Below, piece by piece: positions 1 through 35,160 of a stretch of DNA of 64,000 bases (position 1 is its first letter; every line of letters begins with the position of its first letter). The stretch is from NCBI GenBank assembly GCA_963808015.1, contig CAWEEG010000020.1, positions 1,051 to 65,050 of the forward strand, in the 5' to 3' direction. A program made the position numbers and the translations under genes. This stretch comes from an uncultured Actinomycetota bacterium. GTDB taxonomy: Bacteria; Actinomycetota; Acidimicrobiia; Spongiisociales; UBA5794. The notes under the pieces are model-generated. The model was not told where the DNA came from, did no database searches, and saw nothing but the letters and a program-made list of their open reading frames with translations.

Positions 1-170
1 CTATCCTATGATTATGATACTTATCAAACTATTGAGAAATGACGAATAGTGGTTCTCATCTGGATTATATGATGAAACGGGTTCAGGGAATCGAAGGGCC
101 GGGTGTTTTCTTTTTCAGTGTTCTACTCGAACCCCTGACCCCTTGACCCCTCGGATCCTGACTTTACCCT

Positions 171-1183
171 TCATTTTGATTTAAAATGATCCCATCCTTT
201 GGGTTTGAATTCTTTAATCCGGTCCGACGAATCGACAATTTCCATTTTTCCAGAATTTGTTATCTTTCCAATGGGATAAAGAGGACTGTTAAAGGTTTTT
301 AGATATTTTTCGGTCACATCATCGGCATGATCCGGCGACACGGTGCATAGCAATGTATAATCTTCACCTCCGGCAAATGCAAACTCAGCAGGGTTAAAAT
401 CAAACCGTCTGCAAAAAAAGATCAGATTTTTTGAAACAGGAATTTGGTCAGCGAATAAACGAACACCTACATGGCTTTCCTTTGCAATATGAACAATATC
501 GGATGAAAGCCCGTCGCTGACATCTATCGCTGCGTGAACACCGTTTTGAGCGGATAGAAATCGGCCTTCGTGTAAAAAGGGCCTTGGAAGAATATGCGCA
601 TGAAACAGTGCTTTCAACTTCTTTAGAATCAGCCGGTATGTTGTTTAGTATCATGTGCAGCCCTGCACGGCTGTCACCCAGAAAGCCTGTGGAAAAAATG
701 ATATCTCCAGGTTGTGCTGCATTTCTAAGGAGCAATTCCTCCTTTGGGAACACTGCCTGTCACAGAAATATTAATAATTAAGTCAACCACAGACGAGGTG
801 GTATCGCCGCCAAGAATGTTGACCTTAAATGTAGCAGCCAGATCTTTTATCCCACGGTAAAGATCTTCAAGAAAGTCTATGGAGCAATCTTCAGGAATAG
901 CAACACTGATAAATGCCTCCCTTGCAGTTCCGCCCATGGCTGCAATATCGCTTAAATTGACAGCCAAAGATTTATATCCTAGATTAAATCCGGTTGTTGC
1001 ATCTCGCAGAAAATGAACCCGTTCAACCAGCAAGTCTGTGGTTATAAGGGAGACAAGGCCGGCATCTGTATAAAATGCAGCCGCATCATCGCCGATTGCA
1101 CGTATTATATTTTCAGGACGGATGAGGCAACCCTGACTGATTTTTTCGATAAATCCGAACTCCCCGATATCTTTTAATTTCAT
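171..1183 (-). CDS. thiL: thiamine-monophosphate kinase ThiL, reading frame broken twice
   Basis: ORF pieces 725..1183, 448..753 and 171..617 read as one ThiL. N-term has GEFGFIEKI...IGDDAAAF...TTDLLVERVHF. The middle has PGDIIFSTGFLGDSRAGL. C-term has AAIDVSDGLSSD...GGEDYTLLCTV. Frame changes near ~745 and ~610. The start overlaps the thiE stop. Confidence 0.8.
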
Positions 1184-1860
1184 GAGATACGTGCCTTTTT
1201 TATCATAGCACCTAATTTTTCGGCGGCTTTTCCAGGATCATCCGCAGAAACAATGGTTGATACAACGGCAATTCCGTCGGCACCGTTTAATATGACTTCG
1301 CCTGCATTTTCACAGTTTAAACCGCCGATGGCAACTTTTGGGATCTTTACAGTCCTGCTTATTTTTTTTAATCCCTCAAGACCAAGTGGCATAGCTGTAT
1401 CTGTTTTTGTTGGGGTTGCGAAAATCGGACTGATGCCGATATAATCTGCACCATCTTTTTCAGCCCGGATCGCATCTTCAAGAGATTCAGCGGAAATTCC
1501 GATGATCATCGAATTTTTCAGAATATCTTTTGCCATTCTAAGCGGCATGTCTGTCTGGCCCAAATGAACGCCGTCTGCGCCAACTGCCTGTGCAACATCC
1601 ACCCGGTCATTAATGATCAGCGGGATATTGCTTTGTTTTAAATACTTTTTTACAGATAATGCTTCTGTAATAAATTTGCGTGTGGAACAGTGTTTCTCAC
1701 GCAGTTGAACGCAGGTTACACCTCCGGCAACACCGGCTTTGACAATTTCAAGGGTGGCTCTTCCCCTGGAAAGAGCTCTGTCTGTAACAAGGTATAAAGA
1801 ATAATCGATTGAGGCAATTTCAAAACGTCCCCTTTTGTCCGACATCTGCGTCAGGCTCAT
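1180..1860 (-). CDS. thiE: thiamine-phosphate synthase
   Basis: 226 aa intact ORF. Contains LYLVTDR, VQLREK, IINDRVDVA...GADGVHLGQ and ISPIFATPTK, all typical ThiE motifs. Sits between thiM and thiL. Confidence 0.9.
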   Translation of the reverse strand: MSLTQMSDKRGRFEIASIDYSLYLVTDRALSRGRATLEIVKAGVAGGVTCVQLREKHCSTRKFITEALSVKKYLKQSNIPLIINDRVDVAQAVGADGVHLGQTDMPLRMAKDILKNSMIIGISAESLEDAIRAEKDGADYIGISPIFATPTKTDTAMPLGLEGLKKISRTVKIPKVAIGGLNCENAGEVILNGADGIAVVSTIVSADDPGKAAEKLGAMIKKARIS

Positions 1861-1971
1861 ATTTTAATCCTCGAAATACTACATGTATTCCTGTGGTTAA
1901 AATATTCGCCTTCCTTGATCTCGAACAAAATTGAACATTTTGAAACCGCCTCAATTGATTCAGGTTTCATT

Positions 1972-2736
1972 TCAATTTTTCTCAATCTTACAACCTGCTT
2001 TAAGCTTTTCCGGGGTTATTGTATATAAGGCATCCAGCATCTTTATCATGAAACTTCCAGGTGCCTGTGCTTTTTTACCTGCCACTTCTCCTGCCAGGCC
2101 GAAAAATGCAAGCGCGGTGGCCGCTGCGCTGAATGGATCATGGTCTACGGCTAAAAATGCACCGACAACTGCGGTTGCCGTGCATCCGGTTCCGGTGACA
2201 CATGCCATAAGGGGGTGACCATTGGAAACATGCACTGTACGGTTACCGTCAGTCACCAGGTCAACAGAACCTGTTATAGCCAGAGTGGTTTGCAATTCTT
2301 TTGCCAGTATTTTGGCTGTGTTAGTGGCATCTTCAACACTGTGGATAGAATCAACACCTTTGGTTTTTGAATCACTGTTTTTAAGGGATAAAATTTCCGA
2401 CGCATTTCCCCGGATAACGCTGATTTTTGTTTCATTAATAATTTTTTTGGCAGACTCAGTTCTTAGTGATGTAGCTCCGGACCCAACCGGGTCAAGTATG
2501 ATGGGAGTTTTCAGGGTGGTTGCCTTTTTCCCGGCTTTAATCATGGAATCAATCCAGTCATCAGTTAGTGTACCAATGTTAAGTACCAGAGCGCCGGCAA
2601 ATGAAACCATTTGTTCGACTTCATTTGGTGCGTGGGCCATAACCGGCGATGCACCCACGGCAAGAAGTGCATTTGCCGTATAATTCATCACAACATAGTT
2701 TGTTATATTATGAATAAGCGGCTTGTTTTTTCTCAC
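1972..2736 (-). CDS. thiM: hydroxyethylthiazole kinase
   Basis: 254 aa intact ORF. Contains PLIHNITNYVVMNYTANALLAVGASPVMAH, ILDPVG and VTGTGC motifs. First gene downstream of the TPP riboswitch. Confidence 0.9.
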   Translation of the reverse strand: MRKNKPLIHNITNYVVMNYTANALLAVGASPVMAHAPNEVEQMVSFAGALVLNIGTLTDDWIDSMIKAGKKATTLKTPIILDPVGSGATSLRTESAKKIINETKISVIRGNASEILSLKNSDSKTKGVDSIHSVEDATNTAKILAKELQTTLAITGSVDLVTDGNRTVHVSNGHPLMACVTGTGCTATAVVGAFLAVDHDPFSAAATALAFFGLAGEVAGKKAQAPGSFMIKMLDALYTITPEKLKAGCKIEKN

Positions 2737-2825
2737 AGCAGTAAGGTTTTAGGCCGTTTTGGAAGAGAGATTTTTCATGAGGTAACTCCTGTCTTGGTGA
2801 AAAGGCAGCAGTGCTGGAATTTCTC

Positions 2826-2960
2826 CAATAAAAAAGCCGTTTGCAAGGAAACGGCTTTTTAGGGTTCTATAAATGATAAGTATGTCGTTCCCTACGCTGG
2901 AATTATCCAGATCAGGTTCAAAGGGTGTAATCTCAGGCGTCTTGCAGCCACCCCGCATGT
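2826..2960 (-). promoter_or_regulatory. TPP (THI-box) riboswitch with intrinsic-terminator expression platform
   Basis: The minus strand of 2884..2956 reads gcggggtggctgcaagacgCCTGAGAttacACCCTTTGAACCTGATCTGGATAATTCCAGCGTAGGGAAcgac, the canonical THI element core. It is followed (plus 2826..2860) by the hairpin GCCGTTT-ccttgc-AAACGGC plus a T-run. Located in the 5-prime leader of thiM. Confidence 0.9.
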
Positions 2961-3118
2961 TAATTTTTTTTATTCTAATCTCTAACAAACAGACAGTGAT
3001 AAGTCAACAATAAATTATATGCATAAATACATCAGAAATAGTATTTTATTTGTAGTATATCCTTATTGTCAGAATCTGATCCCCTGAAAACTGTATTAAT
3101 TAACAGAGATAAACGATG

Positions 3119-4409
3119 CTAAAATTCAGCTGATCGGGATGCCGCTGTATCCGTATCATCGGTTTCCTTGTCTGCGATCTGAAGCGCTTTATCGATGATA
3201 TCGATGGCTTGATCCACCTGTTCCACGGTAATAATCAAGGGCGGAGCGAGGACCAGGTTGTCATACCAGGCCAGCATGTGTAAACCGTGATGCATGCACT
3301 CCATGGAAGTTTTTCCGGTCATCAGCGGTTTTCCGCTGATTTTATCCGCTTCGACATTAAACGGTTCTTTGGTCTTTCGATTTTTTCGATTTCGAAGGCC
3401 CAGAAATGCCCCGGCCCCTGACGTCACCGATACAGGGATGTTTGTCCGCCAGTTCATAAAGCCTGTTTTTCAATGCTGGCTGAGTTTTTGCGGCAATCCG
3501 CTCTCCATCATCCGCCTGTCTCCGCGATCGCCGTCGGCACCGGTGATAAAGCCATGGCATGATAAGCATAGGTATGACCATGGCAAAAGAAGTTATCTTC
3601 AAAGAATCGGCAACCCCCTTGTTGGCGACGGTAATTCCCAGCGGTGTATAGGCTGATGTCGGCTCCCTTTGCCGTAGTCATGATATCCGGCTGGACATCC
3701 CAGATATCCATAGCAAATGCGTGGCCGGTTCTGAACCATCCAGTCATGACTTCATCGGCGATTAACAGCACACCGTTTTCATCACAAATTTTTCTAACTA
3801 ACGGAAAATATTCCGGGGGTGGAACGATACGCCCGTTGGTCCCAACGATCGGCTCAACGATCATGGCGGCTACGTTGCCTTCCTCTTTGATCATATAGTC
3901 CAGATATCTCGCGCACTGGATTTGGCATCCAGGATATTCCAAGGCGAATGGGCAACGGTAGCAGTAAGCGTCCGGTGCGAAAAGAACGCCATCGACCGTG
4001 TACCTGACACTTTCAACCGGCCACCGCCGTGGATCTCCGGTAAAAGCCATACCGGTGGGTGTCGCCCCATGAAAAGAATGATAGCGAGAAATCACCTTGT
4101 AAGCCGGTGCCTTGGATTGCCTGACCATGACCAGCGCACCGTCATTGGCCTCGGTACCACTGGTCAAAAAAGAACTTGTCCAAGCCTTTCGGCATAATGG
4201 ACCGCAACGCTTCAACCGCTTCCACAGCGATCTCAGTGGTAAAACCTGGCGCAATATAGGGCAGTTTTTCAGCTTGCTTCACAATGGCCTCAATAATTGC
4301 CTTGTTTTTTATGGCCCAGATTGGAACACATCAACTGGGATGAAAAATCGAGATACGATTTCCCCTTGGCATCATAGAAATAGACGCCTTCAGCATCAGT
4401 AATTAATGT
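3119..4409 (-). pseudogene. class-III (omega) aminotransferase, multiply frameshifted and 5-prime truncated at the composition break
   Basis: Pieces 4290..4409 (TLITDAEGVYFYDAKGKSYLDFSSQL), 3508..4254 (FHGAT...MIVEPIVGTNG...LLIADEVMTGWFRTGH...DIMTTAKG), 3357..3602 frame (HPCIGDVRGRG) and 3119..3457 (LVLAPPLIITVEQVDQAIDII) together make one PLP aminotransferase in four frames. No start codon lies before the break at ~4409. Confidence 0.7.
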
Positions 4410-5519
4410 CGGCGCGATCCAAGCGTTTTGCCGACTTCCATCGACACGATCGAAGCGGTCTCCGGCGCGGGAATGCAGACGGTCGGCGGTGGTCAGAACG
4501 CCGACGCAGCGTGGGAGCCTCTCCTCGTCGATGTATCGGGGCTGACCGTCGCCGTATTCGCGTTCGACGTGAGTGGACACGGACTTGGCGCATCCCAAGG
4601 CCCGGGCGTCGCGTCTTGGGATCCGGACCGTGCCGAGATCGCTGTAGGGGACGCCCGCGCGATTGCCGATGTGGTCGTGGCAGGCATCCATGGCGGCCTC
4701 GAGTTCTGGCAAGACATTGATCCGCAGTTGGAACCCGTCGCACTGAATCTGGCCTCATGGGGCGTCGACATCGTCTGGGGTCACGGCCCCCACGTCGCAC
4801 AGCCGATATCACTGTCCGAGGCGTACGGCACCCGACCGACGGTGATCGCCACCAGCCTCGGGAACTTCCTCTTCGACCAGCAGACCGAGCCAACGAGTCA
4901 CGGATCGATCCTCGAGGTGCTCGTCGACGGAAGCGGCGTAGCGGCGTGGCGCACCGGCCACAAACACCACGACGATCTGAGAGTTCACTTTGCAGGTTGG
5001 GATCTCCCCATTGGGAATGCGGGCCTCGTTGACGGTGACTGGTGGAACGTGGCCCGCGATCTCCCGTTGGATGCGGTCGACGCGCCAGCAACCGGGTTCC
5101 CGTTTGGAACCGTTCTCGCTGCCTCTGTCGGCGATATCGCGGGCGTCGGAATCGAGACCGTCCTCGTTTCGTATCGCCATCCGCTCAGCGACGCGAATTG
5201 GGATCCGCGACCGATGGCAACCGATACGTCCGGCCGCAGTGCACACATAGGAGTGTTCGAGTCGGACTGGACGCCCGTCTGGATGTCCCGCCGCCCTCCG
5301 CATCCCGTAGGAACCCTCGCTGCTTGTGATGGATCTGCCGCTTTCGGGTACACAACGCTCGATGATCCGACCGTGGTGGCAACCGGGGCTGGCGCCTGGA
5401 ACGGGTTCGGCTTCACACTCGCCCCAGACCTTCCAGGCCACGGCACACCCTCGTGCGCGGACTTCGATCACGACGGTGATCTCGATGCCGTAGTCGTAGA
5501 CCGCTCAACTATCCGTTGA
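4410..5519 (+). CDS. CapA-family (poly-gamma-glutamate synthesis-type metallophosphatase) C-terminal fragment with FG-GAP/VCBS-like tail, N-terminus missing
   Basis: The frame is open from the in-frame TAA at 4404-4406. Contains GAGMQTVGGGQNADAAWEP, DVVVAGIHGG and IVWGHGPHVAQPI (CapA-type motifs), and ends CADFDHDGDLDAVVVD. No plausible start or N-terminal half. Confidence 0.55.
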   Translation, partial: RRDPSVLPTSIDTIEAVSGAGMQTVGGGQNADAAWEPLLVDVSGLTVAVFAFDVSGHGLGASQGPGVASWDPDRAEIAVGDARAIADVVVAGIHGGLEFWQDIDPQLEPVALNLASWGVDIVWGHGPHVAQPISLSEAYGTRPTVIATSLGNFLFDQQTEPTSHGSILEVLVDGSGVAAWRTGHKHHDDLRVHFAGWDLPIGNAGLVDGDWWNVARDLPLDAVDAPATGFPFGTVLAASVGDIAGVGIETVLVSYRHPLSDANWDPRPMATDTSGRSAHIGVFESDWTPVWMSRRPPHPVGTLAACDGSAAFGYTTLDDPTVVATGAGAWNGFGFTLAPDLPGHGTPSCADFDHDGDLDAVVVDRSTIR

Positions 5520-5715
5520 GACGCACCGAGGGGTTGCGTCTGGTTGGGAGGTGGCTGGGGAAACGGTTGGCGCGAGAGATCATCATCGGGTCGATCGACC
5601 GCAGGGGTTGTTGGCGTGACCGCTGAGGCAATTCGCCGTACGGAAGCGGACCTCCATGCCACGGCCCGAGAGATCGTCCCGGTGTGGGAGCTGCTCAGAC
5701 GCGGCGACTCCTCCT

Positions 5716-5846
5716 GGGCCATGGAACCGTTTTACCCCCTCCCGCCTCGCTGGGTTCGGTCAGGTTCGGCTGATCGTGGGTTGTGGAACCGTTTGACCCC
5801 CTCCGCCTCGCTGGGCTCGGCACCTCCCCCCTGAGGGGGAGGAATC
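5716..5846. repeat. interspersed repeat family 1, copy A (two GGAACCGTTTGACCCCCTCCGCCTCGCTGGG units plus hairpin)
   Basis: 5722..5757 and 5783..5819 are direct sub-repeats. 5823..5842 (cctcccccctgagggggagg) is a GC hairpin. Related copies at 16836..16955, 38719..38965 and 56938..57000. Lies between convergent gene ends. Confidence 0.8.
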
Positions 5847-5864
5847 CCAGGAGAGGCCTGGTTC

Positions 5865-7883
5865 TCAGTTGAGGTTGAAGTCGCCGGCCACAGGGAGCCA
5901 ACCCGTTCCAGCGCCTTTCCAGGTGAACTGGGAATCGGCGTTGCCCTGCGTCAAGTCGTGCCGGAAATAGAACACCTGATTCGACGGCCGGAACAAACCC
6001 GGCGTGTCCTCACCATCCACGATCCCCCAGTCACCCGCAACGAATCGGTCACCCGGATCACCGAAGTAGAACTGCCCGTGCGCGACACCGGTCGACAACG
6101 TGTTGCGATAGTAGAAGAACCCCGTCGACTCACGATGCAGACCGACTTCGTCGATCCCGTCGCCATCCCAATCCCCCACCATCGGCTTATCACCCTGGTT
6201 ACCGAACAGGAATGAATAGTCCGCCGCCCCCAAACCGCCGCCATTCTGACCCAACGCGTTGATGATGTAGAACCGAGCCTCCAACGGCCGGTAGATCGAC
6301 AACGTGTCACACCCGTTCCCGTTGAAATCACCCGCAATCGGAACATCACCAGGATTCCCGAAGAAGAACGACACATCCGCAATCCCCTGCGAATTCGAGT
6401 TCCGGAGATACGCAAACCCATCCGACTGGCGATACAACCCCGGTGTGTCCTCCCCATCACAATCCCAGTCCCCCACAAACGGATAATCGCCAGGATCCCC
6501 GTAGTAGAACTCAGACACCACCCCCGCCGTGTTGCGCAGACGCCACATCCCCGATCCGGGATCCACCAACCCCACCGTGTGCGGCACACCGATCTTGATC
6601 GTCACCGTCGCCGTGTTCGACACACCCGAACGCGGGTCCTTCGCTGCGTACCGGAACGAATCCATCAACACCGCCGACCCATCGTGGCGATAGACGAACG
6701 TCCCATCCGTCGAGAACTTGAAACTCGCCGCATGGCTCGGACCCGTCACCAGCTTCGCAGTCAGATCCTCACCATCGGGATCCGAATCGTTCGCCAACAC
6801 CGTCGGACCCGCGAACGTCACACCCGGCCGCACATAGAACGGGCCATCGTCAACGGCCACCGGCGGCCGATTCACCGACTCCCAGTTGCCGTATTTCTCG
6901 TCCCCCTCGTGGTCCGTCAAATGACCCAAATTCGACCCATCCGGATCCACCATCCACAGATCCCAATCCCCATCGGCATCCGACGAAAACAAGATATGAC
7001 GCCCATCCGGCGACCACTCCGGCCAGTACTCATTCGATGTCGTCTTCGTGAGACGCAGAACGCGTGCACCGTTCGAGTCCATCACATAGAGATCGCGAGG
7101 ATTCCCACCCCGGTCCGAAATGAACGCGATCTTCGAACCATCCGGCGACCACGCCGGCATGAGCTCCATCGACGTCGGGCTCTTTGTCAGGTTCGTGACC
7201 CGAGTTCCATTCACACTCATCACGTAGATGTCGTCGGACCCATCCCGATTTGAACGGAACGCGATCGTCGAACCATCCGGCGACCAAGCGGGGTCGTCCT
7301 CGATACCGAGAGCAGTTCCCGGAGTGAGGTTCACCGGGTTGGATCCGTTCGCATCCATCACCCAGATATCGCTCGTCAAGATGCCCAAGGGGCTTCGAGC
7401 GAACACGATTCGCGAGCCGTCGGGCGACCACCTCGGATGGAATTCCGCCTCCTTGCTGTTCGTGAGGTTCTTCAACCCACTGCCGTCCGGAGCTACGACC
7501 CAGATATCGCGGGTGCCCGAGGCAAGGGACACAAAGGTGATTCTCTTTCCATCTGAAGACCAGTCCGGCGACTCCTCCGCCGCCACGAAGTTCGACGTCA
7601 GCTGACTCCACGCACCACCAGCGAAGTCCCGCGTGTAGAGCTCCCCACCACCTTCGGTGGACGTGAACACGATCCTGCCGACCGCGCCGGGCACGGTGGC
7701 ATCCGCAGCTTCCGGCACGACCGACAGACCCCCAACCGTCACAACAACGGCAACCAACAGAACCAGAAGATTGCGCACGATGTCCCCCTTGTCAAGACTC
7801 AGTGCCGATGCACCAATGCTCTCGCCAACAGCCGACACGGCCAGGGGAGAAAGCCCCTTTGGGACCTGATCTGTAGGCTTCAA
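5865..7883 (-). CDS. secreted TolB-like (PD40) beta-propeller / cadherin-like / FG-GAP repeat protein
   Basis: 672 aa. Hydrophobic signal-like segment LLVLLVAVVVTVGGLSVVPEAADA. Repeated WSPDGxxIxFxSxRxGxxDIYVM units. VNRPPVAVDD...ANDSDPDGEDL domain. Four or more C-terminal G(D/N)PGDxPxxGDWDGDG repeats. The true start may be internal (~7790). Confidence 0.75.
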   Translation of the reverse strand: MKPTDQVPKGLSPLAVSAVGESIGASALSLDKGDIVRNLLVLLVAVVVTVGGLSVVPEAADATVPGAVGRIVFTSTEGGGELYTRDFAGGAWSQLTSNFVAAEESPDWSSDGKRITFVSLASGTRDIWVVAPDGSGLKNLTNSKEAEFHPRWSPDGSRIVFARSPLGILTSDIWVMDANGSNPVNLTPGTALGIEDDPAWSPDGSTIAFRSNRDGSDDIYVMSVNGTRVTNLTKSPTSMELMPAWSPDGSKIAFISDRGGNPRDLYVMDSNGARVLRLTKTTSNEYWPEWSPDGRHILFSSDADGDWDLWMVDPDGSNLGHLTDHEGDEKYGNWESVNRPPVAVDDGPFYVRPGVTFAGPTVLANDSDPDGEDLTAKLVTGPSHAASFKFSTDGTFVYRHDGSAVLMDSFRYAAKDPRSGVSNTATVTIKIGVPHTVGLVDPGSGMWRLRNTAGVVSEFYYGDPGDYPFVGDWDCDGEDTPGLYRQSDGFAYLRNSNSQGIADVSFFFGNPGDVPIAGDFNGNGCDTLSIYRPLEARFYIINALGQNGGGLGAADYSFLFGNQGDKPMVGDWDGDGIDEVGLHRESTGFFYYRNTLSTGVAHGQFYFGDPGDRFVAGDWGIVDGEDTPGLFRPSNQVFYFRHDLTQGNADSQFTWKGAGTGWLPVAGDFNLN

Positions 7884-7980
7884 GCTCTCAGAGCCCCCTC
7901 TGCACCCGGACTTGCGTTCGGCCGCTTCTCCCCACCTGCGGTGGGAGCGACGAAGATGCCCGCGGCTCGACGGACCCGGT

Positions 7981-9895
7981 TCAGAAGACTCCGAAGTTGC
8001 CAGCTACTGGGAGCCAGCCTGGTCCGGCGTCGGGCCAAGGGGATTCCTCATCCGCGCTGCCCTGCGTCAGGGTGTAGCGAAGGTAGAACGTCAGATCCGA
8101 CGGACGGAACAACCCAGGCGTGTCCGCACCATCAACCACACCCCAATCCCCCGCAACAAGCCGGTCGCCCGGGTCGCCGAAGTAGAACTGGCCATCTGCA
8201 CTCCCCGTCGTCAACAAGTTGCGGTAGTAGAAGAAGCCCGTCGACTCGCGATGCAACCCTATCTCGTCGACGGCATCGCCGTCCCAATCCCCGACCACCG
8301 GCTTGTCACCAGCGTCGCCGAACAGGAACGAGAAGTCGGCAGCACCCAGACCTCCGCCATCCTGGCCCAATGCGTTGATGACGTAGAACCGGGCTTCAGA
8401 CGGCCGGTAGATCGAAACCGTGTCGCACCCATCGCCGTTGAAATCACCGGCCAGGGGAACGTCACCAGGATTCCCGAAGAAGAACGTCAAGTCTGCGGAG
8501 CCCTGCGTGTTGCTGTTACGCAGGTACACGTAGCCGTCGGACTGCCGATACAAGCCGGGCGTGTCGACCCCATTGCAGTCCCAGTCTCCCATGAACGGAT
8601 AGTCGCCCGGGTTCCCGTAGTAGAAGTCCGAAACCCCGGCGCCGAGGGTGATCAGGTGCCACATTCCGGTTCCCGGATCCACCAAACCCACGGAGTCCGG
8701 GAAACCAATCATGATTGTGACCGTTGCGACATTCGAGACTCCCGAACGCGTATCCCGGGCTCGATAGGTGAACGTGTCGATCGCCGGGATCGGACCGCTG
8801 CGCTCGTACGTGAAGGTTCCGTCCGCGGCAAGGCTGAAGCTCGTCGCTTGAGTAGGACCCGTCACAAGTTCTGCCACGAGGTCCTCACCGTCGGGATCTG
8901 AGTCATTCACCAGCACCGACGAACCGTGCAGAGTTCGCCCGTTCGACATGTGATACGGGCCGTCATTCGAGGCGATCGGCGGACGATTCACCGATTCCCA
9001 CGCGGTGTACCACTCGTCCGCAGGATCATTGGTCAGTTGGGTGAGATTCGAGCCATCTGGATCGACCATCCAGAGATCACCGACGTTGTTCACGAGCGAC
9101 GTGAAAGCGATGTGCGCACCGTCGGGTGACCATGCGGTCGCCAGCTTGCTGCTCAAGATGGTGGTCAGGCGGCGAACGTTCGAACCGTCGGCGTTCATGA
9201 CATAGAGATCGCTGCTCAAGCCGGCTCGATTCGACAGAAAGGCGATCTGCGAGCCGTCGGGTGACCAGGCAGGATTGCGGTCCATGGACGCGCCGCCAGC
9301 TGTGAGATTGACGACGTTCCCGCCATCGGCGTCCATCAGATAGACGTCAGCATCTCCGTCCCTGTCGGATGTGAACGCGATCTTGGCGCCGTCCGGTGAC
9401 CATGCTGGATCGAGGTCATACGTCTCAGGGGCGGCGGTCGTCAGGCCGGTCTTGCCGGATCCGTTGGAGTTCATCACCCAGATGGAGTAGGAGTTCACCG
9501 ACCGTTTCGAAACGTAGGCGATCTTCGTACCGTCCGGCGACCACGACGGGTACCCGTTCGCAAACCCGTCCAGAGCGACAGGATGTTTGGCAGCGCCATT
9601 GGCGTTCATCACCCAGATTGCGGAATTGGTTGGCGGACCCAGTGCGTAGACGATCTTCGTTCCGTCCGGAGACCAGTCCAGGCCGAATTCTCGCTCCGTG
9701 TTCCATGTCAAGCGTTGCCATGCGCCGCCCGCAGCATCTCGCTTGTATATCTCGCCTTCGGGGTGATCACGATCCGACCAGAACGCGATCTCCCCGATCG
9801 CACCTGGAGTGGTCGCGTCGGCAGATCGGGGCACGTTCGCCGTCAGCGCGAATGTCGACCCCGAGCACAGTGAAGAGAGCCAGCATTCTGCGCAC
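7981..9895 (-). CDS. secreted TolB-like (PD40) beta-propeller / FG-GAP repeat protein, tandem paralog; frame break in signal peptide
   Basis: 617 aa ORF collinear with 5865..7883 in domain order. The signal peptide (VRR)MLALFTVLG...STFALTANVP lies upstream in another frame. The break is at the C-run ~9859-9862. Confidence 0.7.
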
Positions 9896-10000
9896 GGCGT
9901 CCCCCTCTCGGCCTGGGTTGTGATACTTCAAGTATCGGTTGATCAGACCTTCGGAGTAAGGGGTATTGGCGGGTGCCTGACGACGGAGCGGAGAAATGAC

Positions 10001-21797: not shown

Positions 21798-22366
21798 TTA
21801 GTGCACTCCTCCAAGGTCATCGATGTAGCGGTCGACAAGCTCACGCTGACCTTGGGCGTCGAGGCTGCCGCCGACAACTTTCTCAGCGACATCGATCGAC
21901 AGATCCGCGACCTGGCGCCTGAGCTCGCCTGCAACACGCTCGCGTTCGCCCACGAGTCTCACCCTGAGCTCGCTCCTTGATCTGATCGGCTTCGGTCTCG
22001 GCTCGTGCCACGACGTCGGCCTTCACCTGCTCACCCGCCGTCCGAGCATCATCGACGATCTGCGTCGCCTCGGCCTTGGCTCCCGACAGCTGCTCTTGGT
22101 AGTCAACGAGCAGGCTCTCGGCCTCGACTTTGGCGTCCTCTGCTGCCTGGAGTTCGGATCGAATCGGCTGCCTGACGAGCTTCAAGCGTCTTGTTCAGTG
22201 CAGGGACTGCCCACTTCCACACGAAGAAGAACACGATGGCGAACGCGATGAGACCCGCGATAGTCTCATTCGGGTCGGGGAACAAGAGGTCAACACCACT
22301 TGCCTCCTCATCGACGGCGGTGGTCTCCTCTGCAAAGAGGAGAAAGGCCTGGGTCATCAGCAACAT
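21798..22366 (-). CDS. atpF: Fo ATP synthase subunit b, two frame breaks (~22165 and ~21955)
   Basis: Three frames join. First a TM helix plus WKWAVPALNKTLEARQ. Then IRSELQAAEDAKVEAESLLVDYQEQL...IKERAQ. Then RLVGERERVAGELRRQVADLSIDVAEKVVGGSL...stop at 21798. Confidence 0.85.
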
Positions 22367-22378
22367 GCTCAGTTCCTC

Positions 22379-22606
<228 letters not shown>

Positions 22607-22610
22607 CTAC

Positions 22611-23430
22611 TCAGTGCTCAGGGTGAACAGATGTTTGGACATAGACCGCTGACAGCAGCGTGAAGATGTACGCCTGCAGGATGATGACCACGATCTCGAA
22701 CATGTAGATGCCGAGGCCGAAAACAAACCACGGGATACCGATCAGCGCCCGGATGCCAATGTCGCCGACGCTCGAGATGAAGACCCATCCGGATACAAGC
22801 AAGAGCGTCAGCATGAGGTGACCGGCAACAAGGTTCGCGAAGAGCCGGACGGCAAGCGTGATCGGGCGCAGAATGAACGTCGACACAACCTCGATCAGCC
22901 CGACGAGCGGGCGCAGGGCAAGCGGAACCGCCATAGGCCACGCCAGATCACCCACGTAGCGGAAGCCGTTCTTCTTGAAGCCGACGAATACGAAGATCAC
23001 CCAGGTCAGCAGGGAGAGCATCAAGGGGATCGCCATGCGGGAGGTGATCGGGAAGTTGATCAGAGGAGTGACCTCAAAGGCGTTGCCGATCAGGATGAAG
23101 AGGAAGATCGACAGCAACCAGGGGAAGTACTTGATTCCTTCGGGGCCGATGATGCCGATGGCAATCTCGTCTCTCACGAACACGACAAGGCTCTCGATCG
23201 CCACGCCGAACTTCGAAGGGACGAGGCTCTTGCCGCGGAGTCCGAAGAAGAGCAGGGCGAGCAACGATGATCATCGCGAGGAAGATCAGGATGACCGTTC
23301 GCGTGAAATCGAGCGGTCCGATCGTGAAGAGCGGATCGGTGAACTCGAACAGTTCGGTCACGTTCTCCGGCCGACAGATGATGTCGTTCGCGGGATCACA
23401 TTCCCCGCTGGCCAGAATCAGTTGCTCCAC
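22611..23430 (-). CDS. atpB: Fo ATP synthase subunit a, one frame break near 23265
   Basis: The 22611..23264 piece carries LAVRLFANLVAGH (the essential Arg motif). The N-terminal part (VEQLILASGE...FTRTVILIFLAMIIV) is in the frame of 23074..23865. The GTG start at 23430 overlaps the upstream stop. Confidence 0.85.
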
Positions 23431-23865
23431 TCCAGGTCCCTTTCCGCGCCGTTCATCACCGCTACCGCCTCCCAGGACAGCAGCACCAAATAGCTCACCA
23501 CCACCGAGATCCCCATGGCCATCCGATCGAGATCGGTCACGTTCGCGATGATCAGCATCGACACCGTAATGAGGCCTAGCCGAATCAGGAATCCGAAAGA
23601 GCGCGGCGGCATGATACATGTTCATGGATACGCGTGCCGCTCGGGCCATGATGTAGCCACCGAGTAGGAAATTGCCGACAACGATCGCAACACCAACGAG
23701 TGCGGCCACGGCTCCGGGCCACCCCTGAAGAATGCCGAAGATGAGAGCCAGCACGGGTGCCACGAAGAGGCTCCGTTTGGCGATGTTCTTGCCGATGATC
23801 GCCTCAATCGGCCGCTCGTCCGGAACAGGGCGATAGCGCACGAGAGGATCGACGTCAGATCCCAT
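23418..23865 (-). CDS. ATP synthase protein I-like small membrane protein, one frame break near 23600
   Basis: Two frames join: MGSDVDPLVRY...VAALVGVAIVVGNFLLGGYIMARAA... and ...GFLIRLGLITVSMLIIANV...SVVVSYLVLLSWEAVAV. Sits immediately upstream of atpB, as atpI usually does. Confidence 0.5.
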
Positions 23866-24106
23866 GAGTGATCCCGTCGGCTTCCTCTTCGATGGCCGCT
23901 GAACGCATCCACATGCGGTAGGAGCCGACGCCCACGCCGAGAAGCGACCACACGATGGTCATGATCGGGCTCCACCCGGTCAGCCAGTCGAGGAGCAGCC
24001 CGATGAGCAGACCCGTGAGGATGTAGGTGAAGAAATCGGCTCCGTCGGAGAAGCCGCCGGTAATGGCTTCCTTCGGCGGGATGCCTCGACCTCTCGCCCC
24101 ATCCAT
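23855..24106 (-). CDS. AtpZ/AtpI-family small membrane protein, first gene of the atp operon
   Basis: 83 aa with two TM helices (FFTYILTGLLIGLLLDWL, IMTIVWSLLGVGVGSY). Position and size fit the AtpZ family. Confidence 0.55.
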   Translation of the reverse strand: MDGARGRGIPPKEAITGGFSDGADFFTYILTGLLIGLLLDWLTGWSPIMTIVWSLLGVGVGSYRMWMRSAAIEEEADGITHGI

Positions 24107-24292
24107 CTTCTGGTATCTCCCAGGTTGCCGGGGCGATGATCAACGGCCCCGCTTGCCGCCCCAGAGGCTACCTCCCGTCCACCCCGTAATGAAACTGCGG
24201 GCGGGACAACTTCCGACGTGACTCCGCTCGGGAATCCGTCGGACGGGGCCGACGATGAATCACCGAACGAATCGGCACATCGCGATCAAGCA

Positions 24293-25819
24293 TCACTCGG
24301 TTGTAACCGCACATTCGTGGACAAGATGCGGTGAAGCACCGGAGATCAACGTCCTGACGGTGTAGTTTCCAAAACGTTCGGTGACTGCGTAGTCGGTGGC
24401 GAGCGTGTCGCGGAGGCCGCCAATGTCCTCGGAGCTCACGAGCTCCTCCCACCCGAGCTTGGTGATCACAACATCGGGCGCCGGCCCGGCGAGTACGAAA
24501 CCCGTGTACTGTTCGGAATGGCACACAAACGGGTTGGGGAAGTTGTAGACCCACTCTCGCTCGGCACCCGGAAGCACGAGCTTCGATACCGCAGAGAGTG
24601 CCCCCGGGGCCGTTGACGAGACACTCGCCGCCTGTTGATCCGCTGCCGAGGCTGCCGGGTAGATCACGTCAAACCGCGGCTTGATGGTCAGCGACCCGGG
24701 GATGATCCAAGCAACCACGATCACCGCTGCGACGAGACCTACGGCGAGCTCGTCGCTGAACGACCACACCCGGAGCGACAGTGCAAAAGCCACTGCAGCA
24801 CCAACCAGGAGGAAGTTCCAGTAGTGCTGGTACCACACGTCGGCAAACGTCGGGCTTCCGAGTGCTGCGACCAGCAACATCGGAATACCAACGACGAACC
24901 AGCGAGGCGCCCGCATCGGCAGCGTGATTCCGACCGTCAAGAGCCACATCAAGATCGAGGTCACGAATACGGGATTCAAGAGCTCACCCAGCACCGCGCC
25001 GGGCTGTCTCAACATCGCGAGTGGTAGTTCGGTGATCGAGACAACGCCGAGATAGTCGAAATAGACGGACGTGGTCGGGGCCTCGCTCGGTCCGAGGAAC
25101 ATCCAGAGCGCCATCACCGCCGCGACCCCTGTGCCGATGGCGATCGTCACCTTCGCATGGATACGGGAGACCGCCAACAGCAGCAGCCCGGCAACAATCA
25201 CGGTGATGGCGATCTCGATTCGAGCCAACGATGCGAGCAGCGGGAGGACCCAGAAGACCGAGATCCGCCATCGCCGGTACGCCCCGGCGATCGTCATCGC
25301 CACAAGACCCATCGAGAGGCCGGTCAGGTGCAGCTCGGTGATGATCGCCCAATACGCCGCGGGGCTCGCAAGCACGTACAGCAACACTGCATGCTTCCGC
25401 CGTCGGCTCAAGCCGATCGCGTCGGCGATCAACCATGCTGCGAGTCCCACCATCGCCACCGAAACAGCTTGCAGCACGAGCAGCACCGGATACGCGAGGC
25501 CCGGGTTCACCCAGTAGATCGGGACGGCTGCGAGCAGGAGCGCCGAAGTGTGGTCGGCAAAATGGCTGACACCGCCGAGACCCGACACGTCCCCGAGACC
25601 GGCCGAAACCTTGTAAAGCACGTTGTCGATGAAGCCAGCATCGAACGCATTGGCCTGGAGTTCCCACACCCGCCGAAGAGCCAAGAACGAATACACCAGC
25701 GCGGCAGCCGCCGTCGCCAGGTACGGGACAACGCGGGAGTCGACCTCTCGAGTCGAGTCCGATGGCGCTGGAGTCGGACGCGATTGACTCACCGTTTCAG
25801 ACACCTCGGGACTGTACAA
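24293..25819 (-). CDS. polytopic membrane protein, DUF2079-like (putative glycosyltransferase-C-type)
   Basis: 508 aa with more than 10 hydrophobic spans. The N-terminal region FDAGFIDNVLYKVSAG...VSHFADHTSALLL resembles the DUF2079 signature as I recall it. Confidence 0.45.
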   Translation of the reverse strand: MYSPEVSETVSQSRPTPAPSDSTREVDSRVVPYLATAAAALVYSFLALRRVWELQANAFDAGFIDNVLYKVSAGLGDVSGLGGVSHFADHTSALLLAAVPIYWVNPGLAYPVLLVLQAVSVAMVGLAAWLIADAIGLSRRRKHAVLLYVLASPAAYWAIITELHLTGLSMGLVAMTIAGAYRRWRISVFWVLPLLASLARIEIAITVIVAGLLLLAVSRIHAKVTIAIGTGVAAVMALWMFLGPSEAPTTSVYFDYLGVVSITELPLAMLRQPGAVLGELLNPVFVTSILMWLLTVGITLPMRAPRWFVVGIPMLLVAALGSPTFADVWYQHYWNFLLVGAAVAFALSLRVWSFSDELAVGLVAAVIVVAWIIPGSLTIKPRFDVIYPAASAADQQAASVSSTAPGALSAVSKLVLPGAEREWVYNFPNPFVCHSEQYTGFVLAGPAPDVVITKLGWEELVSSEDIGGLRDTLATDYAVTERFGNYTVRTLISGASPHLVHECAVTTE

Positions 25820-25929
25820 CAGGCCTTCGCGCCACTCGCGGCACCACTCGGGCGAACCGGCCGAACCTGGCCACCTTCAGAACGCCTCCACGAGCACACC
25901 AGCATTCGCTCGGTCGAGGCGAGCAATCC

Positions 25930-27192
25930 CTACGCGTACCCGGGGAATCCCTCGGGGTAGGCGGGGAAGGCTTCGATGAGTTCGTCAACCGCCTCCTTGA
26001 CCGTCGCGATCGCGTACGGCTCGTTGCGCCGACGGAGAAGCTCGACGATGGCGTTGCCGAGCGTGAGCATCTGCTCCTGTTTCATACCGACGGCCGTCAC
26101 TGCCGGTGTCCCGATTCGGATGCCCGATGTGACGAACGGTGACCGTGCATCGAATGGGATCGAATTCCGGTTCAGCGTGATCCCCATCTGGTCGAGGAAC
26201 GTTGCGGCCTCTTTGCCCGTCAACTCGGGATCGATGCTCGATACATCCACCAGGAACATGTGATTCTCGGTACCGCCGGACACGACGCGGGCTCCATCTT
26301 CGGCAATGGAGTCGGCGAGCACCTTGGCGTTGCGAACGATCTGCGTCGCGTACGTTGCGAACTCGGGCTCCGAGGCTTTCTTGAATGCCAGCGCCTTGCC
26401 CGCAATCTGATGGTTGAACGGACCGCCCTGCGCGTATGGGAAGACGCCCTTGTCGATCACCTTCGCGTACTCCTCAGACGACAGGATCAATCCACCGCGG
26501 GGTCCACGTAGCGATTTGTGTGTCGTGGCCGTGACAATGTCGGCGTACGGGACCGGACTCGGGTGTACCCGACCGGCGACAAGGCCGGTGATGTGCGCCA
26601 TGTCCACGAGCAGCACGGCGCCGACCTCATCAGCCACCTCCCGGAAGAGGCCCCAGTCGGGAATCTGCGAGTAGGCCGAGTAGCCGGCAATGATCATCTT
26701 CGGTTGGTGTTCAACGGCGAGACGTCGCAAATCGTCCATGTCGATGCGCTCGGTCTCCGGATCAACACCGTACGAAACGAAGTTGAACAGCTGGCCCGAG
26801 AAACTCACCGGTGACCCGTGGGTGAGGTGTCCGCCCTGGTCGAGACGCATCCCGAGAATCGTGTCACCGGGTTCCAAAACCGCCAGGTAGGCGGCCATGT
26901 TGGCCTGCGAACCCGAATGTGCCTGCACGTTGGCATGGGCGGCACCGAAAAGCGCCTTCGCGCGTTCGACGGCGAGGCTCTCGACGGCATCGACGATCTC
27001 ACACCCCTCGTAGTAGCGCCTGCCCGGATACCCCTCGGAGTACTTGTTGGTGAGGATCGAACCAACGGCCTGAAGCATCGCGTAATCGGCGGTGTTCTCC
27101 GACGCGATCAAATGGATGTGGCTGCGCTGGCGATCCGCCTCGCGTTCGAGAAGATCCGCGAGTACCGGATCAACATCCGGTAGCGGCGTCAT
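25930..27192 (-). CDS. glyA: serine hydroxymethyltransferase
   Basis: 420 aa intact. Contains LIASENT, YSEGYPGRRYY, and TTHKSLRGPRGG (PLP lysine motif). Confidence 0.97.
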   Translation of the reverse strand: MTPLPDVDPVLADLLEREADRQRSHIHLIASENTADYAMLQAVGSILTNKYSEGYPGRRYYEGCEIVDAVESLAVERAKALFGAAHANVQAHSGSQANMAAYLAVLEPGDTILGMRLDQGGHLTHGSPVSFSGQLFNFVSYGVDPETERIDMDDLRRLAVEHQPKMIIAGYSAYSQIPDWGLFREVADEVGAVLLVDMAHITGLVAGRVHPSPVPYADIVTATTHKSLRGPRGGLILSSEEYAKVIDKGVFPYAQGGPFNHQIAGKALAFKKASEPEFATYATQIVRNAKVLADSIAEDGARVVSGGTENHMFLVDVSSIDPELTGKEAATFLDQMGITLNRNSIPFDARSPFVTSGIRIGTPAVTAVGMKQEQMLTLGNAIVELLRRRNEPYAIATVKEAVDELIEAFPAYPEGFPGYA

Positions 27193-27324
27193 GTCGGTTA
27201 TGAGTGCCCCCTATAAGGCTTGACGGGCGAGGATAGTCGGAGTTGGGCGACGAATTCGCTCCGAACAGCGAACGATCACTCGGCGGGCGTGGGAACCCGA
27301 AGCTGAAACGACGAAATACGGAGA

Positions 27325-27894
27325 CTATGGGGTGACGGGACCGTCGCGTAGGACCCACTCAGCCGGTTGCGTGAGGTCGATGATCGTCGACGCACTGCCA
27401 CCGACGGCTTCACCATCGAGGTAGACGGCGACGTCGTCGCCGAACAGGTTCCTCGCGTCTTCAACGGTGAGGACAGCGGGCCTGCCTGAGATGTTCGCGC
27501 TCGTGACCGCGAGCGGGCCGCTTGCGCGGAGGAACTCGAGTGCGACCGGATGGTTCGGGCAGCGAAGACCGAGCGTCCGTCGGTCGGGGTCGCCGATCCA
27601 TTCCGGCGTCGACTTCAGCTTCGGCACGACCAGCGTGAGCGCGCCCGGCCAGTGCTCCTCTGCGAGCTCGAGGCCACGGTCACCGAAGGCACCAAGCTCG
27701 AGCGCCTGCTCGAGATCCGCCACGAGAATCGCAAGCGGCTTGATTCCCGGCCGCCCCTTCGCAATGAAGATCCGGTCGAGTGAATCGGGGTTGAACGGGT
27801 CGGCGGCGATCCCGTAGAGCGTGTCGGTGGGGATACCCACGAGTTCGCCATTGGTCACGGCCGCGAGCGCTGAGGAGAGCATCTCTGTATCCAT
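27325..27894 (-). CDS. tsaC: L-threonylcarbamoyladenylate synthase (YrdC/TsaC family)
   Basis: 189 aa. Contains GIPTDTLYGIAADP, KGRPGIKPLAILV, TSANISGRP and STIIDLT. Confidence 0.85.
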   Translation of the reverse strand: MDTEMLSSALAAVTNGELVGIPTDTLYGIAADPFNPDSLDRIFIAKGRPGIKPLAILVADLEQALELGAFGDRGLELAEEHWPGALTLVVPKLKSTPEWIGDPDRRTLGLRCPNHPVALEFLRASGPLAVTSANISGRPAVLTVEDARNLFGDDVAVYLDGEAVGGSASTIIDLTQPAEWVLRDGPVTP

Positions 27895-27903
27895 CCCTAC
27901 AAC

Positions 27904-28710
27904 CTACTGCGGTGAGACCCCGATGACGAAGCGTTCCTTGCCGGAGAGGTCGATTCGGATTTCACCGCCGAGAGCCGAGAAGTGGTTTGCGACGGCGGCG
28001 CCGTGGAATTCTGAGATCTCGCAGACGATGACACCGCCGGGAATCAACCACACCGGGGCCGCCGCGGCGATCCTCGCTAGAACCTCATCTCCGACCGGGC
28101 CCGCAACGAGCGCTGACACGGGTTCATGGTCGCGGACGTCTGGAGGGAGGTCGTTCAGTTCGTGCTCTGCGATATACGGAGGGTTGGAGACAACGAGGTC
28201 AACCCTGCCGGCGATGTTCGCTGGCAGCGGTTCGAAGAGGTCGCCGTGGAACACCGTGACGTCCAACCCAGCCGTCCGCGCGTTCGCACGCGCCACGTCA
28301 ACGGCGTCTTCGGACAGATCAACGGCGTAGACCGTCGCCGATGGAAACGCGGCCTTGAGAGCGATCGCGAGATTTCCGCTCCCGGTGCAGAGGTCGACGA
28401 TGACGCTGGGTGCGTCAACCGCCTCACATGCAATCTCGAACAGTTGCTCGGTCTCGGGGCGGGGAATCAGAACGCGTGGATCGACGGACACTTCGATCGG
28501 CCCGAACGCTGCGATCCCCTCAATGTATTGAAGCGGCTCGTCGCTCCTGCGACGCTCGACGAAGCCGTTGAAGCGGCCCACCTGGGCAGCATCCAATTCA
28601 ACCCCGAGAATCAAGTCGGTCCAGTGCCACCCCGTAGCCGCGACGAGCAACCGCCGGACCTCGTGGTCGGGAAGGTCGGGGGCTGAGCGAAGCGCCTCGG
28701 AGGAGTTCAT
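27904..28710 (-). CDS. prmC: release-factor glutamine N5-methyltransferase
   Basis: 268 aa. Contains DLCTGSGNLAI (SAM motif) and VSNPPY. Lies downstream of prfA. Confidence 0.9.
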   Translation of the reverse strand: MNSSEALRSAPDLPDHEVRRLLVAATGWHWTDLILGVELDAAQVGRFNGFVERRRSDEPLQYIEGIAAFGPIEVSVDPRVLIPRPETEQLFEIACEAVDAPSVIVDLCTGSGNLAIALKAAFPSATVYAVDLSEDAVDVARANARTAGLDVTVFHGDLFEPLPANIAGRVDLVVSNPPYIAEHELNDLPPDVRDHEPVSALVAGPVGDEVLARIAAAAPVWLIPGGVIVCEISEFHGAAVANHFSALGGEIRIDLSGKERFVIGVSPQ

Positions 28711-28712
28711 GC

Positions 28713-28787
28713 CGAGACGCTAGACACGAGACACGAGACACGAGAACAGACACGCGTCGTGCTTGCCTGTGACATCCGGGGTCTCAC
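28713..28787. repeat. repeat family 2 (GAGACNN heptad array), copy 1, mostly one arm
   Basis: cGAGACGctaGACACGAGACACGAGACACGAGAACAGACACG at 28713..28756. A weak complementary arm (ggggtctcac) lies at 28778..28787. Sits between the prfA stop and the prmC start. Confidence 0.7.
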
Positions 28788-31058: not shown

Positions 31059-31104
31059 GGTTTCGTCTCCTGATCCTGCTTCGTTCGGAACTGTAGCGGT
31101 CCGC

Positions 31105-32538
<1,434 letters not shown>

Positions 32539-32705
32539 GTGTGTTGTTGCCCCTTTTCAGGACGAAGGGTCAAACGACCCGGAGATTGGGGACCTCGGAC
32601 AACACGACGGTGATCCGGGTCTTCCTGGAATGCTCCCTCGTACGGCACGCGACACGCGGTCGAGAAGGAGTGGATGGAGCGATTGTAACGGTATTCGCGC
32701 TTAGT

Positions 32706-35132: not shown

Positions 35133-35160
35133 AGGGCAAACGATAGACCGACGGGTGTGT

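What the first reader, a model, noticed from the sequence alone, without database searches (positions are those of the whole stretch)
4395..4430. Abrupt composition break with two 5-prime-truncated genes abutting: chimeric join or concatenation of two genomes
Left of 4409 the sequence is visibly AT-rich, with long A/T runs and AT-ending codons (by eye about 40 percent GC). Right of 4410 it is GC-rich with GC3-saturated codons (by eye mid-60s percent). The switch happens within about 10 nt (...cagcatcagtaattaatgt|cggcgcgatccaagcg...). The minus-strand aminotransferase reaches the break at its conserved TLITDAEGVYFYD segment, so it lacks its first few dozen codons and its start. The plus-strand CapA-like frame opens directly after an in-frame TAA (4404-4406), in mid-domain, with no start or RBS. 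No IS end, att site or direct repeat marks the junction. The right side has actinobacterial hallmarks (WhiB, the Mycobacterium-like argS...atp gene order). The left side has none. A join of two unrelated genomes (assembly or binning chimera, or deliberate concatenation) explains this better than horizontal transfer.
Basis: partly seen in the sequence, partly recalled or inferred. Interest (0 to 1): 0.7.

Follow-up and report, generated by a model that had tools for sequence, protein, structure and literature searches.

The report
Artificial join of two unrelated genomes
The sharp composition switch marks the point where DNA from a sulfate-reducer-like bacterium (Desulfobacterales) was stuck end-to-end onto the chromosome of an unrelated actinobacterium (Acidimicrobiia) during sequencing, assembly or data handling, so it is a quality-control flag and not biology.

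Summary
The composition break is real. GC is 44.7% to the left and 62.9% to the right, and the left side's tetranucleotide profile lies 19 SD outside the right side's range. Bases 4410-4440 are codons 19-29 of the left-hand aminotransferase, which happen to be GC-rich.

The join is blunt, with no filler, microhomology, repeat or mobile-element end. It cuts a Desulfobacterales-type class-III aminotransferase after codon 18 of 459. It cuts an Acidimicrobiia PGA_cap gene inside codon 148 of 507.

Two independent assemblies of the same right-hand population (>99.8% identical) read straight through the site into the intact PGA_cap gene and its DUF3160 neighbour. Two Desulfobacterales contigs read through the left-hand gene into its native upstream genes.

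The left 4.4 kb carries at least 12 single-base frameshifts in genes that otherwise show strong purifying selection. About 40 kb of right-hand coding sequence has one or two. The two halves therefore differ in sequence quality, which suggests different read depth.

Verdict: a technical join, either two contigs concatenated or a chimeric long-read contig. It is not horizontal transfer.

The parts
1..4440 (.). AT-rich segment (GC 44.7%) of Desulfobacterales type. It is a natural collinear piece with many single-base indel errors.
   Evidence: Collinear with L002 over 1999-4440 at 90.6% nt. Its tetranucleotide profile matches the rest of L002 (distance 0.018) and not the right side (0.058, z = 19). 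Named relatives are Desulfobacterales and Desulfococcaceae MAGs.
171..1183 (-). thiL (thiamine-monophosphate kinase), broken by two frameshifts
   Evidence: AIRS N-terminal domain in ORF 725-1183 and AIRS_C in ORF 171-617, with the middle part in a third frame.
1180..1860 (-). thiE (thiamine-phosphate synthase), intact
   Evidence: PF02581, 219 bits, full profile.
1972..2736 (-). thiM (hydroxyethylthiazole kinase)
   Evidence: PF02110, 289.5 bits. Homologous to the 267-aa gene of L002.
2871..2965 (-). TPP riboswitch leading the thiM-thiE-thiL operon
   Evidence: Rfam RF00059, 57.9 bits, above the gathering score of 54.3.
3119..4440 (-). Class-III aminotransferase (sources name it taurine--2-oxoglutarate transaminase). 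It is 5'-truncated, with codons 1-18 of 459 missing, and carries about 10 one-base frameshifts.
   Evidence: The reconstructed protein is 95% identical to P0001 and 98% to P0124. Indels against L002 and L083 are at 4437, 4305, 4165, 3660, 3604, 3519, 3471/3465, 3412 and 3386. 81 of 89 substitutions against L083 are at third codon positions.
4440..4441 (.). The join itself: blunt, zero bases shared, no filler
   Evidence: Three-way alignment of the window, L002 and L001, with the same result against L083 and L084. No repeats flank it.
4441..5519 (+). 3' part of a PGA_cap (CapA-like) gene, from inside codon 148 to codon 507. It has no start codon or ribosome-binding site of its own.
   Evidence: The intact 507-aa gene is in L001. 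tblastn gives 99.2% identity over residues 145-507. The Pfam PGA_cap match begins at profile position 98 of 255.
4441..64000 (.). GC-rich (62.9%) Acidimicrobiia/Actinomycetota chromosome segment, high sequence quality
   Evidence: More than 99.8% identical to L001 and L084 near the join. Synteny with L003. Housekeeping genes and WhiB. GC is uniform at 0.61-0.64 in 4.4-kb chunks.
18747..19636 (-). atpG split by one frameshift next to a G-run. This is the only clearly broken gene found on the GC-rich side.
   Evidence: PF00231 profile positions 2-105 fall in ORF 19271-19636 and positions 109-285 in ORF 18747-19406. The frames are shown.

Best explanation
Position 4440|4441 is a technical, non-biological end-to-end join of DNA from two unrelated organisms of one microbial community. 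On the left is a Desulfobacterales-type fragment: a TPP-riboswitch thiM-thiE-thiL operon plus a class-III aminotransferase. On the right is a long, clean piece of an Acidimicrobiia (Actinomycetota) chromosome.

Shown: the break is blunt. Each side continues differently in independent assemblies of its own lineage. The sides differ in composition, in taxonomy and in indel-error density.

Inferred: the left piece was sequenced at much lower depth or quality, probably with long reads. The two pieces were then placed in one record by one of two routes. (a) Two separately assembled contigs, one of them a contaminant, were abutted without a spacer; I put this at about 50% of the total. (b) A long-read assembler extended the actinobacterial contig through a ligation-type chimeric read; about 43%. 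The sequence alone cannot separate (a) from (b). The absence of any shared sequence at the join fits (a) slightly better. The very different composition, which should keep a separate contig out of the same bin, fits (b) slightly better.
For: 1. Right-hand population. L001 (ENA ERZ27250912 k141_1546316) has 5 substitutions and 3 single-base indels over 4441-10000. L084 (JGI Ga0316197_10020739) is 99.87% identical over 4437-8382. Both continue past 4441 into codons 1-147 of PGA_cap, and L001 continues into DUF3160 and two epimerases. DUF3160 also sits next to PGA_cap in four related genomes, L003, L005, L007 and L008.

2. Left-hand lineage. L002 and L083 both read ...GGGACC|TGGAGTCGGCAAAACGC..., with an intact 459-aa gene preceded by a 142-aa ORF and an aldehyde dehydrogenase.

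3. The join is blunt, with no shared bases, filler, inverted-repeat ends or direct repeats.

4. GC is 44.7% against 62.9% (z = -23). The tetranucleotide z-score is 19. Each native continuation matches its own side.

5. The left side has at least 12 frameshifts in about 3.8 kb of coding sequence. The right side has one or two in about 40 kb (conditional binomial p ~6e-11).

6. The frameshifted aminotransferase is 98% identical in amino acids but only 90.6% in nucleotides to L083, with 81 of 89 substitutions at third positions. The gene was therefore under selection, and the indels are errors rather than decay.

7. Inter-phylum chimeric contigs, recognisable by shifts in GC, coverage and gene-level taxonomy, are documented for long-read metagenome assemblers (bioRxiv 10.1101/2025.04.22.649783, read).
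Against: No reads, coverage values or record boundaries are available, so the technical origin is inferred from the sequence alone.

The window's source record was not found in any searchable collection, so I could not see whether one deposited contig spans the join.

The left side has 7 times more homopolymers of 5 nt or longer. That would raise its indel-error rate somewhat even at equal depth, although most of its indels are not in long homopolymers.

Relatives of both organisms appear in ENA analyses with nearby accession numbers (ERZ27250294 and ERZ27250912). Physical contact in nature, and hence transfer, is therefore not excluded a priori.
Confidence: 0.93

Rival explanations
1. This is a genuine inter-phylum horizontal transfer. 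A Desulfobacterales fragment of at least 4.4 kb integrated into the Acidimicrobiia chromosome by illegitimate recombination. It deleted the 5' part of PGA_cap and upstream genes, and it is now decaying.
For: The blunt, homology-free junction is what illegitimate recombination would leave. The broken genes on the left could be read as pseudogenes. Relatives of both lineages turn up in what looks like one study series.
Against: Two assemblies of the same population, more than 99.8% identical, have the uninterrupted native locus.

The left side's composition shows no shift towards the host's. No integrase, transposase, att site, tRNA or target-site duplication is present.

The indel-to-substitution pattern is wrong for decay. 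There are 7 frameshifts in 1031 nt, but only 8 substitutions at first and second codon positions against a 90.6%-identical relative. From established knowledge of bacterial mutation spectra, neutral decay gives many more substitutions than indels.

A roughly 50-fold contrast in error density across the join is not expected for one molecule sequenced at one depth.
Confidence: 0.04
2. This is a short-read de Bruijn-graph chimera, with two genomes joined through a shared k-mer or repeat.
For: Chimeras of this kind are common in metagenome assemblies (general knowledge). The related contigs L001 and L002 are k141 MEGAHIT-style contigs.
Against: Not a single base is shared by the two native sequences at the join. 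The high density of single-base indels on the left is unlike Illumina-based contigs.
Confidence: 0.01
3. This is an 'in-silico' chimeric nanopore read, in which two molecules were read back-to-back without being split. Bases 4410-4440 would then be a noisy remnant of the adapter.
For: From memory, the tail of the ONT rapid adapter (...GCGTTTTTCGTGCGCCGCTTCA) looked vaguely like 4423-4440 (AGCGTTTTGCCGACTTCCA). This was a lead only.
Against: Bases 4410-4440 match the aminotransferase coding sequence of L002 and L083, apart from one extra A and one substitution against L083, and encode W19-P28. No filler is left to be adapter.
Confidence: 0.01

Closest known systems
Inter-phylum chimeric contigs in long-read metagenome assemblies (metaFlye, metaMDBG, hifiasm-meta), as described in bioRxiv 10.1101/2025.04.22.649783
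   Same: A sudden shift in GC and in gene-level taxonomy within one sequence. Indel errors that break reading frames. A join between organisms from different phyla.
   Different: That study defines chimeras by 100% read clipping and coverage shifts, which I cannot test. Here there is also no shared sequence at the join that would explain a mistake in the assembly graph.
MAG contamination, or multi-record concatenation: a foreign contig in a bin, with records abutted without an N spacer
   Same: A blunt boundary in mid-gene on both sides. Each side is internally coherent. No biological junction signature.
   Different: A separate contig this different in tetranucleotide profile (19 SD), and apparently in depth, would normally be kept out of the bin. 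Only one such boundary occurs in 64 kb.
Horizontally acquired genomic island
   Same: A block of foreign composition next to core genes.
   Different: No integrase, tRNA or att site, or direct repeats. The target gene is truncated rather than split. The cargo is ordinary housekeeping metabolism. The foreign block has a different sequencing-error density. The same population elsewhere has the intact locus.

Membership tests
Technical chimera / concatenated records | Abrupt change of base composition and oligonucleotide signature at one point | tested here: met
   GC 44.7% against 62.9%, change-point at 4409-4440, 2*deltaLL ~565, GC z = -23, tetranucleotide z = 19.
Technical chimera / concatenated records | Gene-level taxonomy switches at the same point | tested here: met
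   Relatives of the left side are named Desulfobacterales, Desulfococcaceae or Deltaproteobacteria. Relatives of the right side are named Acidimicrobiia or Actinomycetota, and WhiB is present.
Technical chimera / concatenated records | Each flank continues differently in independent assemblies of its own lineage | tested here: met
   Right side: L001 and L084. Left side: L002 and L083.
Technical chimera / concatenated records | Coverage step, or clipped reads, at the junction | not testable with these tools
   No reads are available. The only proxy is that frameshift density is about 3.2 per kb on the left and about 0.06 per kb on the right.
Technical chimera / concatenated records | A record or contig boundary at the junction in the source file (this would separate concatenation from a chimeric contig) | not testable with these tools
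   The source was not found. An exact 35-mer of the window is absent from genome contigs and metagenome contigs. Exact proteins of the window are not on record.
Horizontally acquired genomic island | Integration signature: tRNA or att site, flanking direct repeats or target-site duplication, or IS ends | tested here: not met
   No repeats flank 4440/4441. The only tRNA is at 38378-38452. The junction is blunt.
Horizontally acquired genomic island | Mobility genes (integrase, transposase, conjugation) in the foreign block | tested here: not met
   The visible 4.4 kb holds only thiL, thiE, thiM, a TPP riboswitch and an aminotransferase. The block runs off the left edge of the window, so the rest is unseen.
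Horizontally acquired genomic island | Foreign block and host flank are one molecule, so sequence quality and depth are the same on both sides | tested here: not met
   About a 50-fold contrast in frameshift density, p ~6e-11. The caveat is a 7-fold difference in homopolymer content.
De Bruijn-graph chimera | A shared k-mer or repeat at the join | tested here: not met
   Zero bases are shared between the two native sequences at the join.

The most novel reading that the evidence does not exclude
The junction is real. An Acidimicrobiia cell took up a Desulfobacterales chromosomal fragment and integrated it by homology-free end joining inside its PGA_cap gene, and the event was caught so recently that the fragment's composition has not shifted at all. 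This would be a snapshot of inter-phylum transfer of ordinary housekeeping DNA without any mobile element.
Probability: 0.03. Interest if true: 0.6.

Novelty: not a real feature. Interest (0 to 1): 0.08.

Why it matters
The finding matters for data hygiene only. Any downstream reading of this window could be wrong if the join is taken as biology. Examples are 'an actinobacterium with a TPP-riboswitch thi operon of deltaproteobacterial type', a 'truncated CapA', 'pseudogenised aminotransferase and thiL', or an inferred HGT event.

Bases 1-4440 should be split from 4441-64000 and assigned to different organisms. The left part should be treated as low-accuracy sequence.

The case also shows that a GC change-point can miss the true breakpoint by tens of bases when the last codons of the foreign gene happen to resemble the other side's composition.

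Tried and rejected
1. ONT rapid-adapter remnant at 4410-4440. Rejected, because those bases are aminotransferase codons 19-29.

2. Locating the source record. An exact 35-mer of the window (4393-4427) was scanned in genome contigs and metagenome contigs with no hit. Exact-protein look-ups of ThiE, AtpD and two versions of the truncated PGA_cap ORF found nothing on record. The chimeric-contig and concatenation routes therefore stay unresolved.

3. tblastn of aminotransferase cluster members against the window gave meaningless identities because of the frameshifts. I replaced it with blastp against a hand-reconstructed protein.

4. A search for GVWGG to find WhiB found nothing. A Cys-motif search followed by Pfam then found WhiB, with AGVWGA at that motif.

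5. I looked for the missing gene parts elsewhere in the window, namely PGA_cap codons 1-147, DUF3160 and the aminotransferase start. There are none. The only DUF3160 hits are a domain shared with the two PD40/Tricorn-like proteins.

6. I considered a second composition break at about 3150, where GC goes from 0.40 to 0.50. It is only the boundary between the thi operon and the aminotransferase, and it is collinear in L002.

Full report
**Observation**

The composition break is real and far beyond chance. A two-segment likelihood scan of the whole window puts the GC change-point at 4409, with 44.6% to the left and 62.9% to the right. Twice the log-likelihood gain is about 566. The right-hand 59.5 kb is very uniform, at 0.611-0.643 in 4.44-kb chunks. 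The left 4.44 kb is therefore 23 SD low in GC and 19 SD out in tetranucleotide distance.

Both genes that meet at the break are 5'-truncated. On the minus strand an Aminotran_3 match begins at profile position 10. On the plus strand a PGA_cap match begins at profile position 98 of 255. No direct or inverted repeat flanks the site.

**Exact breakpoint**

An exact-protein look-up of the neighbouring 672-aa gene returned L001 (ENA ERZ27250912, k141_1546316, 20.2 kb). L001 aligns with the window from 17374 down to about 4441, with 5 substitutions and 3 single-base indels between 4441 and 10000.

A homologue search with the hand-reconstructed aminotransferase returned P0001, which is 95% identical, 459 aa long and encoded on L002. 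It also led to cluster member P0124, which is 98% identical and encoded on L083, a Desulfobacterales MAG (GCA_013043485.1).

In a three-way alignment, read on the minus strand, the window follows L001 through ...CGTGTCGA. It then follows L002 and L083 from TGG(A)AGTCGGCAAAACGC... onward. The join is therefore 4440|4441.

- Bases 4410-4440 encode W19-P28 of the aminotransferase (MNNMESRIKEMAAHTFGT|WSRQNAWIAPTLITDAEG). They are 61% GC by chance.
- The aminotransferase lacks 18 codons.
- PGA_cap is cut inside codon 148 of 507.
- The two native sequences share no base at the join, and there is no filler.

**Each side has its own native continuation**

Right side. L001 continues from the join into the rest of PGA_cap, then DUF3160 (920 aa) and two epimerases. 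A second, independent contig was found with an exact 42-mer taken just right of the join. This is L084 (JGI Ga0316197_10020739). It is 99.87% identical to the window over 4437-8382, and it runs 571 nt past the join in full agreement with L001. DUF3160 also sits next to PGA_cap in the nearest species-level relative, L003 (an 'uncultured actinomycete' MAG), and in three Acidimicrobiia/Actinomycetota MAGs.

Left side. L002 and L083 both place a 142-aa ORF and an aldehyde dehydrogenase upstream of an intact aminotransferase. L002 is collinear with the window down to thiM.

None of the missing pieces occurs elsewhere in the window.

**What the two sides are**

The left side (1-4440) reads, on the minus strand: aminotransferase, TPP riboswitch (RF00059, 2871-2965), thiM, thiE, thiL. 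Its named relatives are Desulfobacterales, Desulfococcaceae and 'Deltaproteobacteria' MAGs.

The right side (4441-64000) is a coherent actinobacterial core region:

- PGA_cap and two PD40/Tricorn-like proteins
- atpC, atpD, atpG, atpA, atpH and atpB
- glyA, sua5, prmC, prfA, rho, thrC, hom, lysA and argS
- tRNA-Arg
- multihaem cytochromes
- WhiB (PF02467, 73.9 bits), an Mrp-type ATPase, aconitase and RlmN

The relatives are Acidimicrobiia/Actinomycetota MAGs.

**Sequence quality differs across the join**

The left side is full of single-base indels. Against both L002 and L083, the aminotransferase has indels at 4437, 4305, 4165, 3660, 3604, 3519 and 3471/3465, plus 3412 and 3386 against L002 alone. 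Each one shifts the frame. thiL is split over three frames.

Yet the gene is 98% identical in amino acids and only 90.6% identical in nucleotides to L083, with 81 of 89 substitutions at third codon positions. Against L002 there are 49 synonymous and 18 non-synonymous codon changes. A gene that decayed long enough to collect about 10 frameshifts should, on established bacterial mutation spectra, also carry many substitutions at first and second positions. It does not. The indels are therefore sequencing or consensus errors.

On the right side, about 40 kb of scanned coding sequence shows one clear frameshift, in atpG next to a G-run, and one possible frameshift at 9856. Against L084 there are only 3 substitutions and 1 homopolymer indel in 3.9 kb.

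The contrast is about 3.2 against 0.06 frameshifts per kb, with p ~6e-11. This is an internal proxy for a step in read depth. The caveat is that the left side has 7 times more homopolymers of 5 nt or longer, although most of its indels are not in such runs. The error type suggests a long-read or other indel-prone platform. That last point is inference.

**Mechanism**

A homology-free, filler-free join rules out a k-mer-graph chimera. It also rules out a back-to-back nanopore read with an adapter remnant, an idea I tested and dropped. Two technical routes remain.

- Two separately assembled sequences were abutted without a spacer, through record concatenation or bin contamination.
- The contig is chimeric, built through a ligation-type chimeric long read.

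Inter-phylum chimeric contigs with exactly these symptoms (GC shift, taxonomy shift, frame-breaking indels) are documented for long-read metagenome assemblers (bioRxiv 10.1101/2025.04.22.649783).

I put about 93% on a technical join, split roughly evenly between the two routes. Genuine horizontal transfer gets about 3-4%. The reasons are that the same population elsewhere has the intact locus, that no integration or mobility signature exists, that the foreign block's composition shows no shift towards the host's, and that quality differs across the join.

**Limits**

No reads or record boundaries are available. The window's source is absent from every collection I could query. The left block runs off the window edge, so its other end is unseen.

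**Verdict**

This is not a biological feature, and its interest is low except as a flag to split the sequence.

Noticed in passing
window 38712-39026, 5675-5856, 16835-16963; L001 63-206 and 19929-20072: A dispersed intergenic repeat of about 100-300 nt on the GC-rich side, with copies 77-85% alike within the window and 90% alike between the two ends of L001. The core motif is TGGAACCGTTT[GT]ACCCCCTCC, with some internal inverted symmetry. It sits after tRNA-Arg, between PGA_cap and the 672-aa PD40 protein, and next to atpC. It may be a MITE- or REP-like element or a small RNA family of this Acidimicrobiia lineage.
   Followed up: partly
window 18747-19636 (-): atpG, an essential ATP-synthase subunit, is split by one frameshift beside a G-run at about 19300-19330. 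This is probably a consensus error, and it shows that the GC-rich side is not error-free either.
   Followed up: partly
window 10000-15300 versus L001 2290-7600: There is a strain-variable patch inside otherwise >99.9%-identical flanks. A giant PKD-domain protein is only 83-94% identical in amino acids to its L001 counterpart, with many small indels. A double-zinc-ribbon protein is 94% identical. This looks like a hypervariable surface-protein locus.
   Followed up: no
L001 1-195 versus window 17375 onward: L001 stops matching the window 73 nt into the 3' end of atpD and carries a copy of the dispersed repeat instead. Both ends of L001 hold that repeat, so the ends of L001 may themselves be repeat-induced assembly artefacts.
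   Followed up: no
window 5865-9834 (-): Two tandem paralogous secreted proteins of 672 and about 637 aa, 60% identical to each other. Each has PD40/Tricorn beta-propeller repeats, a cadherin-like domain and a C-terminal repeat region that is also found at the N-terminus of the neighbouring DUF3160 protein in L001.
   Followed up: no
window 39293-43296 (+): Two adjacent large multihaem c-type cytochromes, of 503 and 831 aa, with MtrC/MtrF-like and cytochrome c7/c3 motifs. They lie in an Acidimicrobiia chromosome and could point to extracellular electron transfer.
   Followed up: no
window 2871-2965 (-): A TPP riboswitch (RF00059, 57.9 bits) precedes thiM-thiE-thiL on the AT-rich side. It is ordinary, but it confirms that this side is a coherent native operon.
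   Followed up: yes
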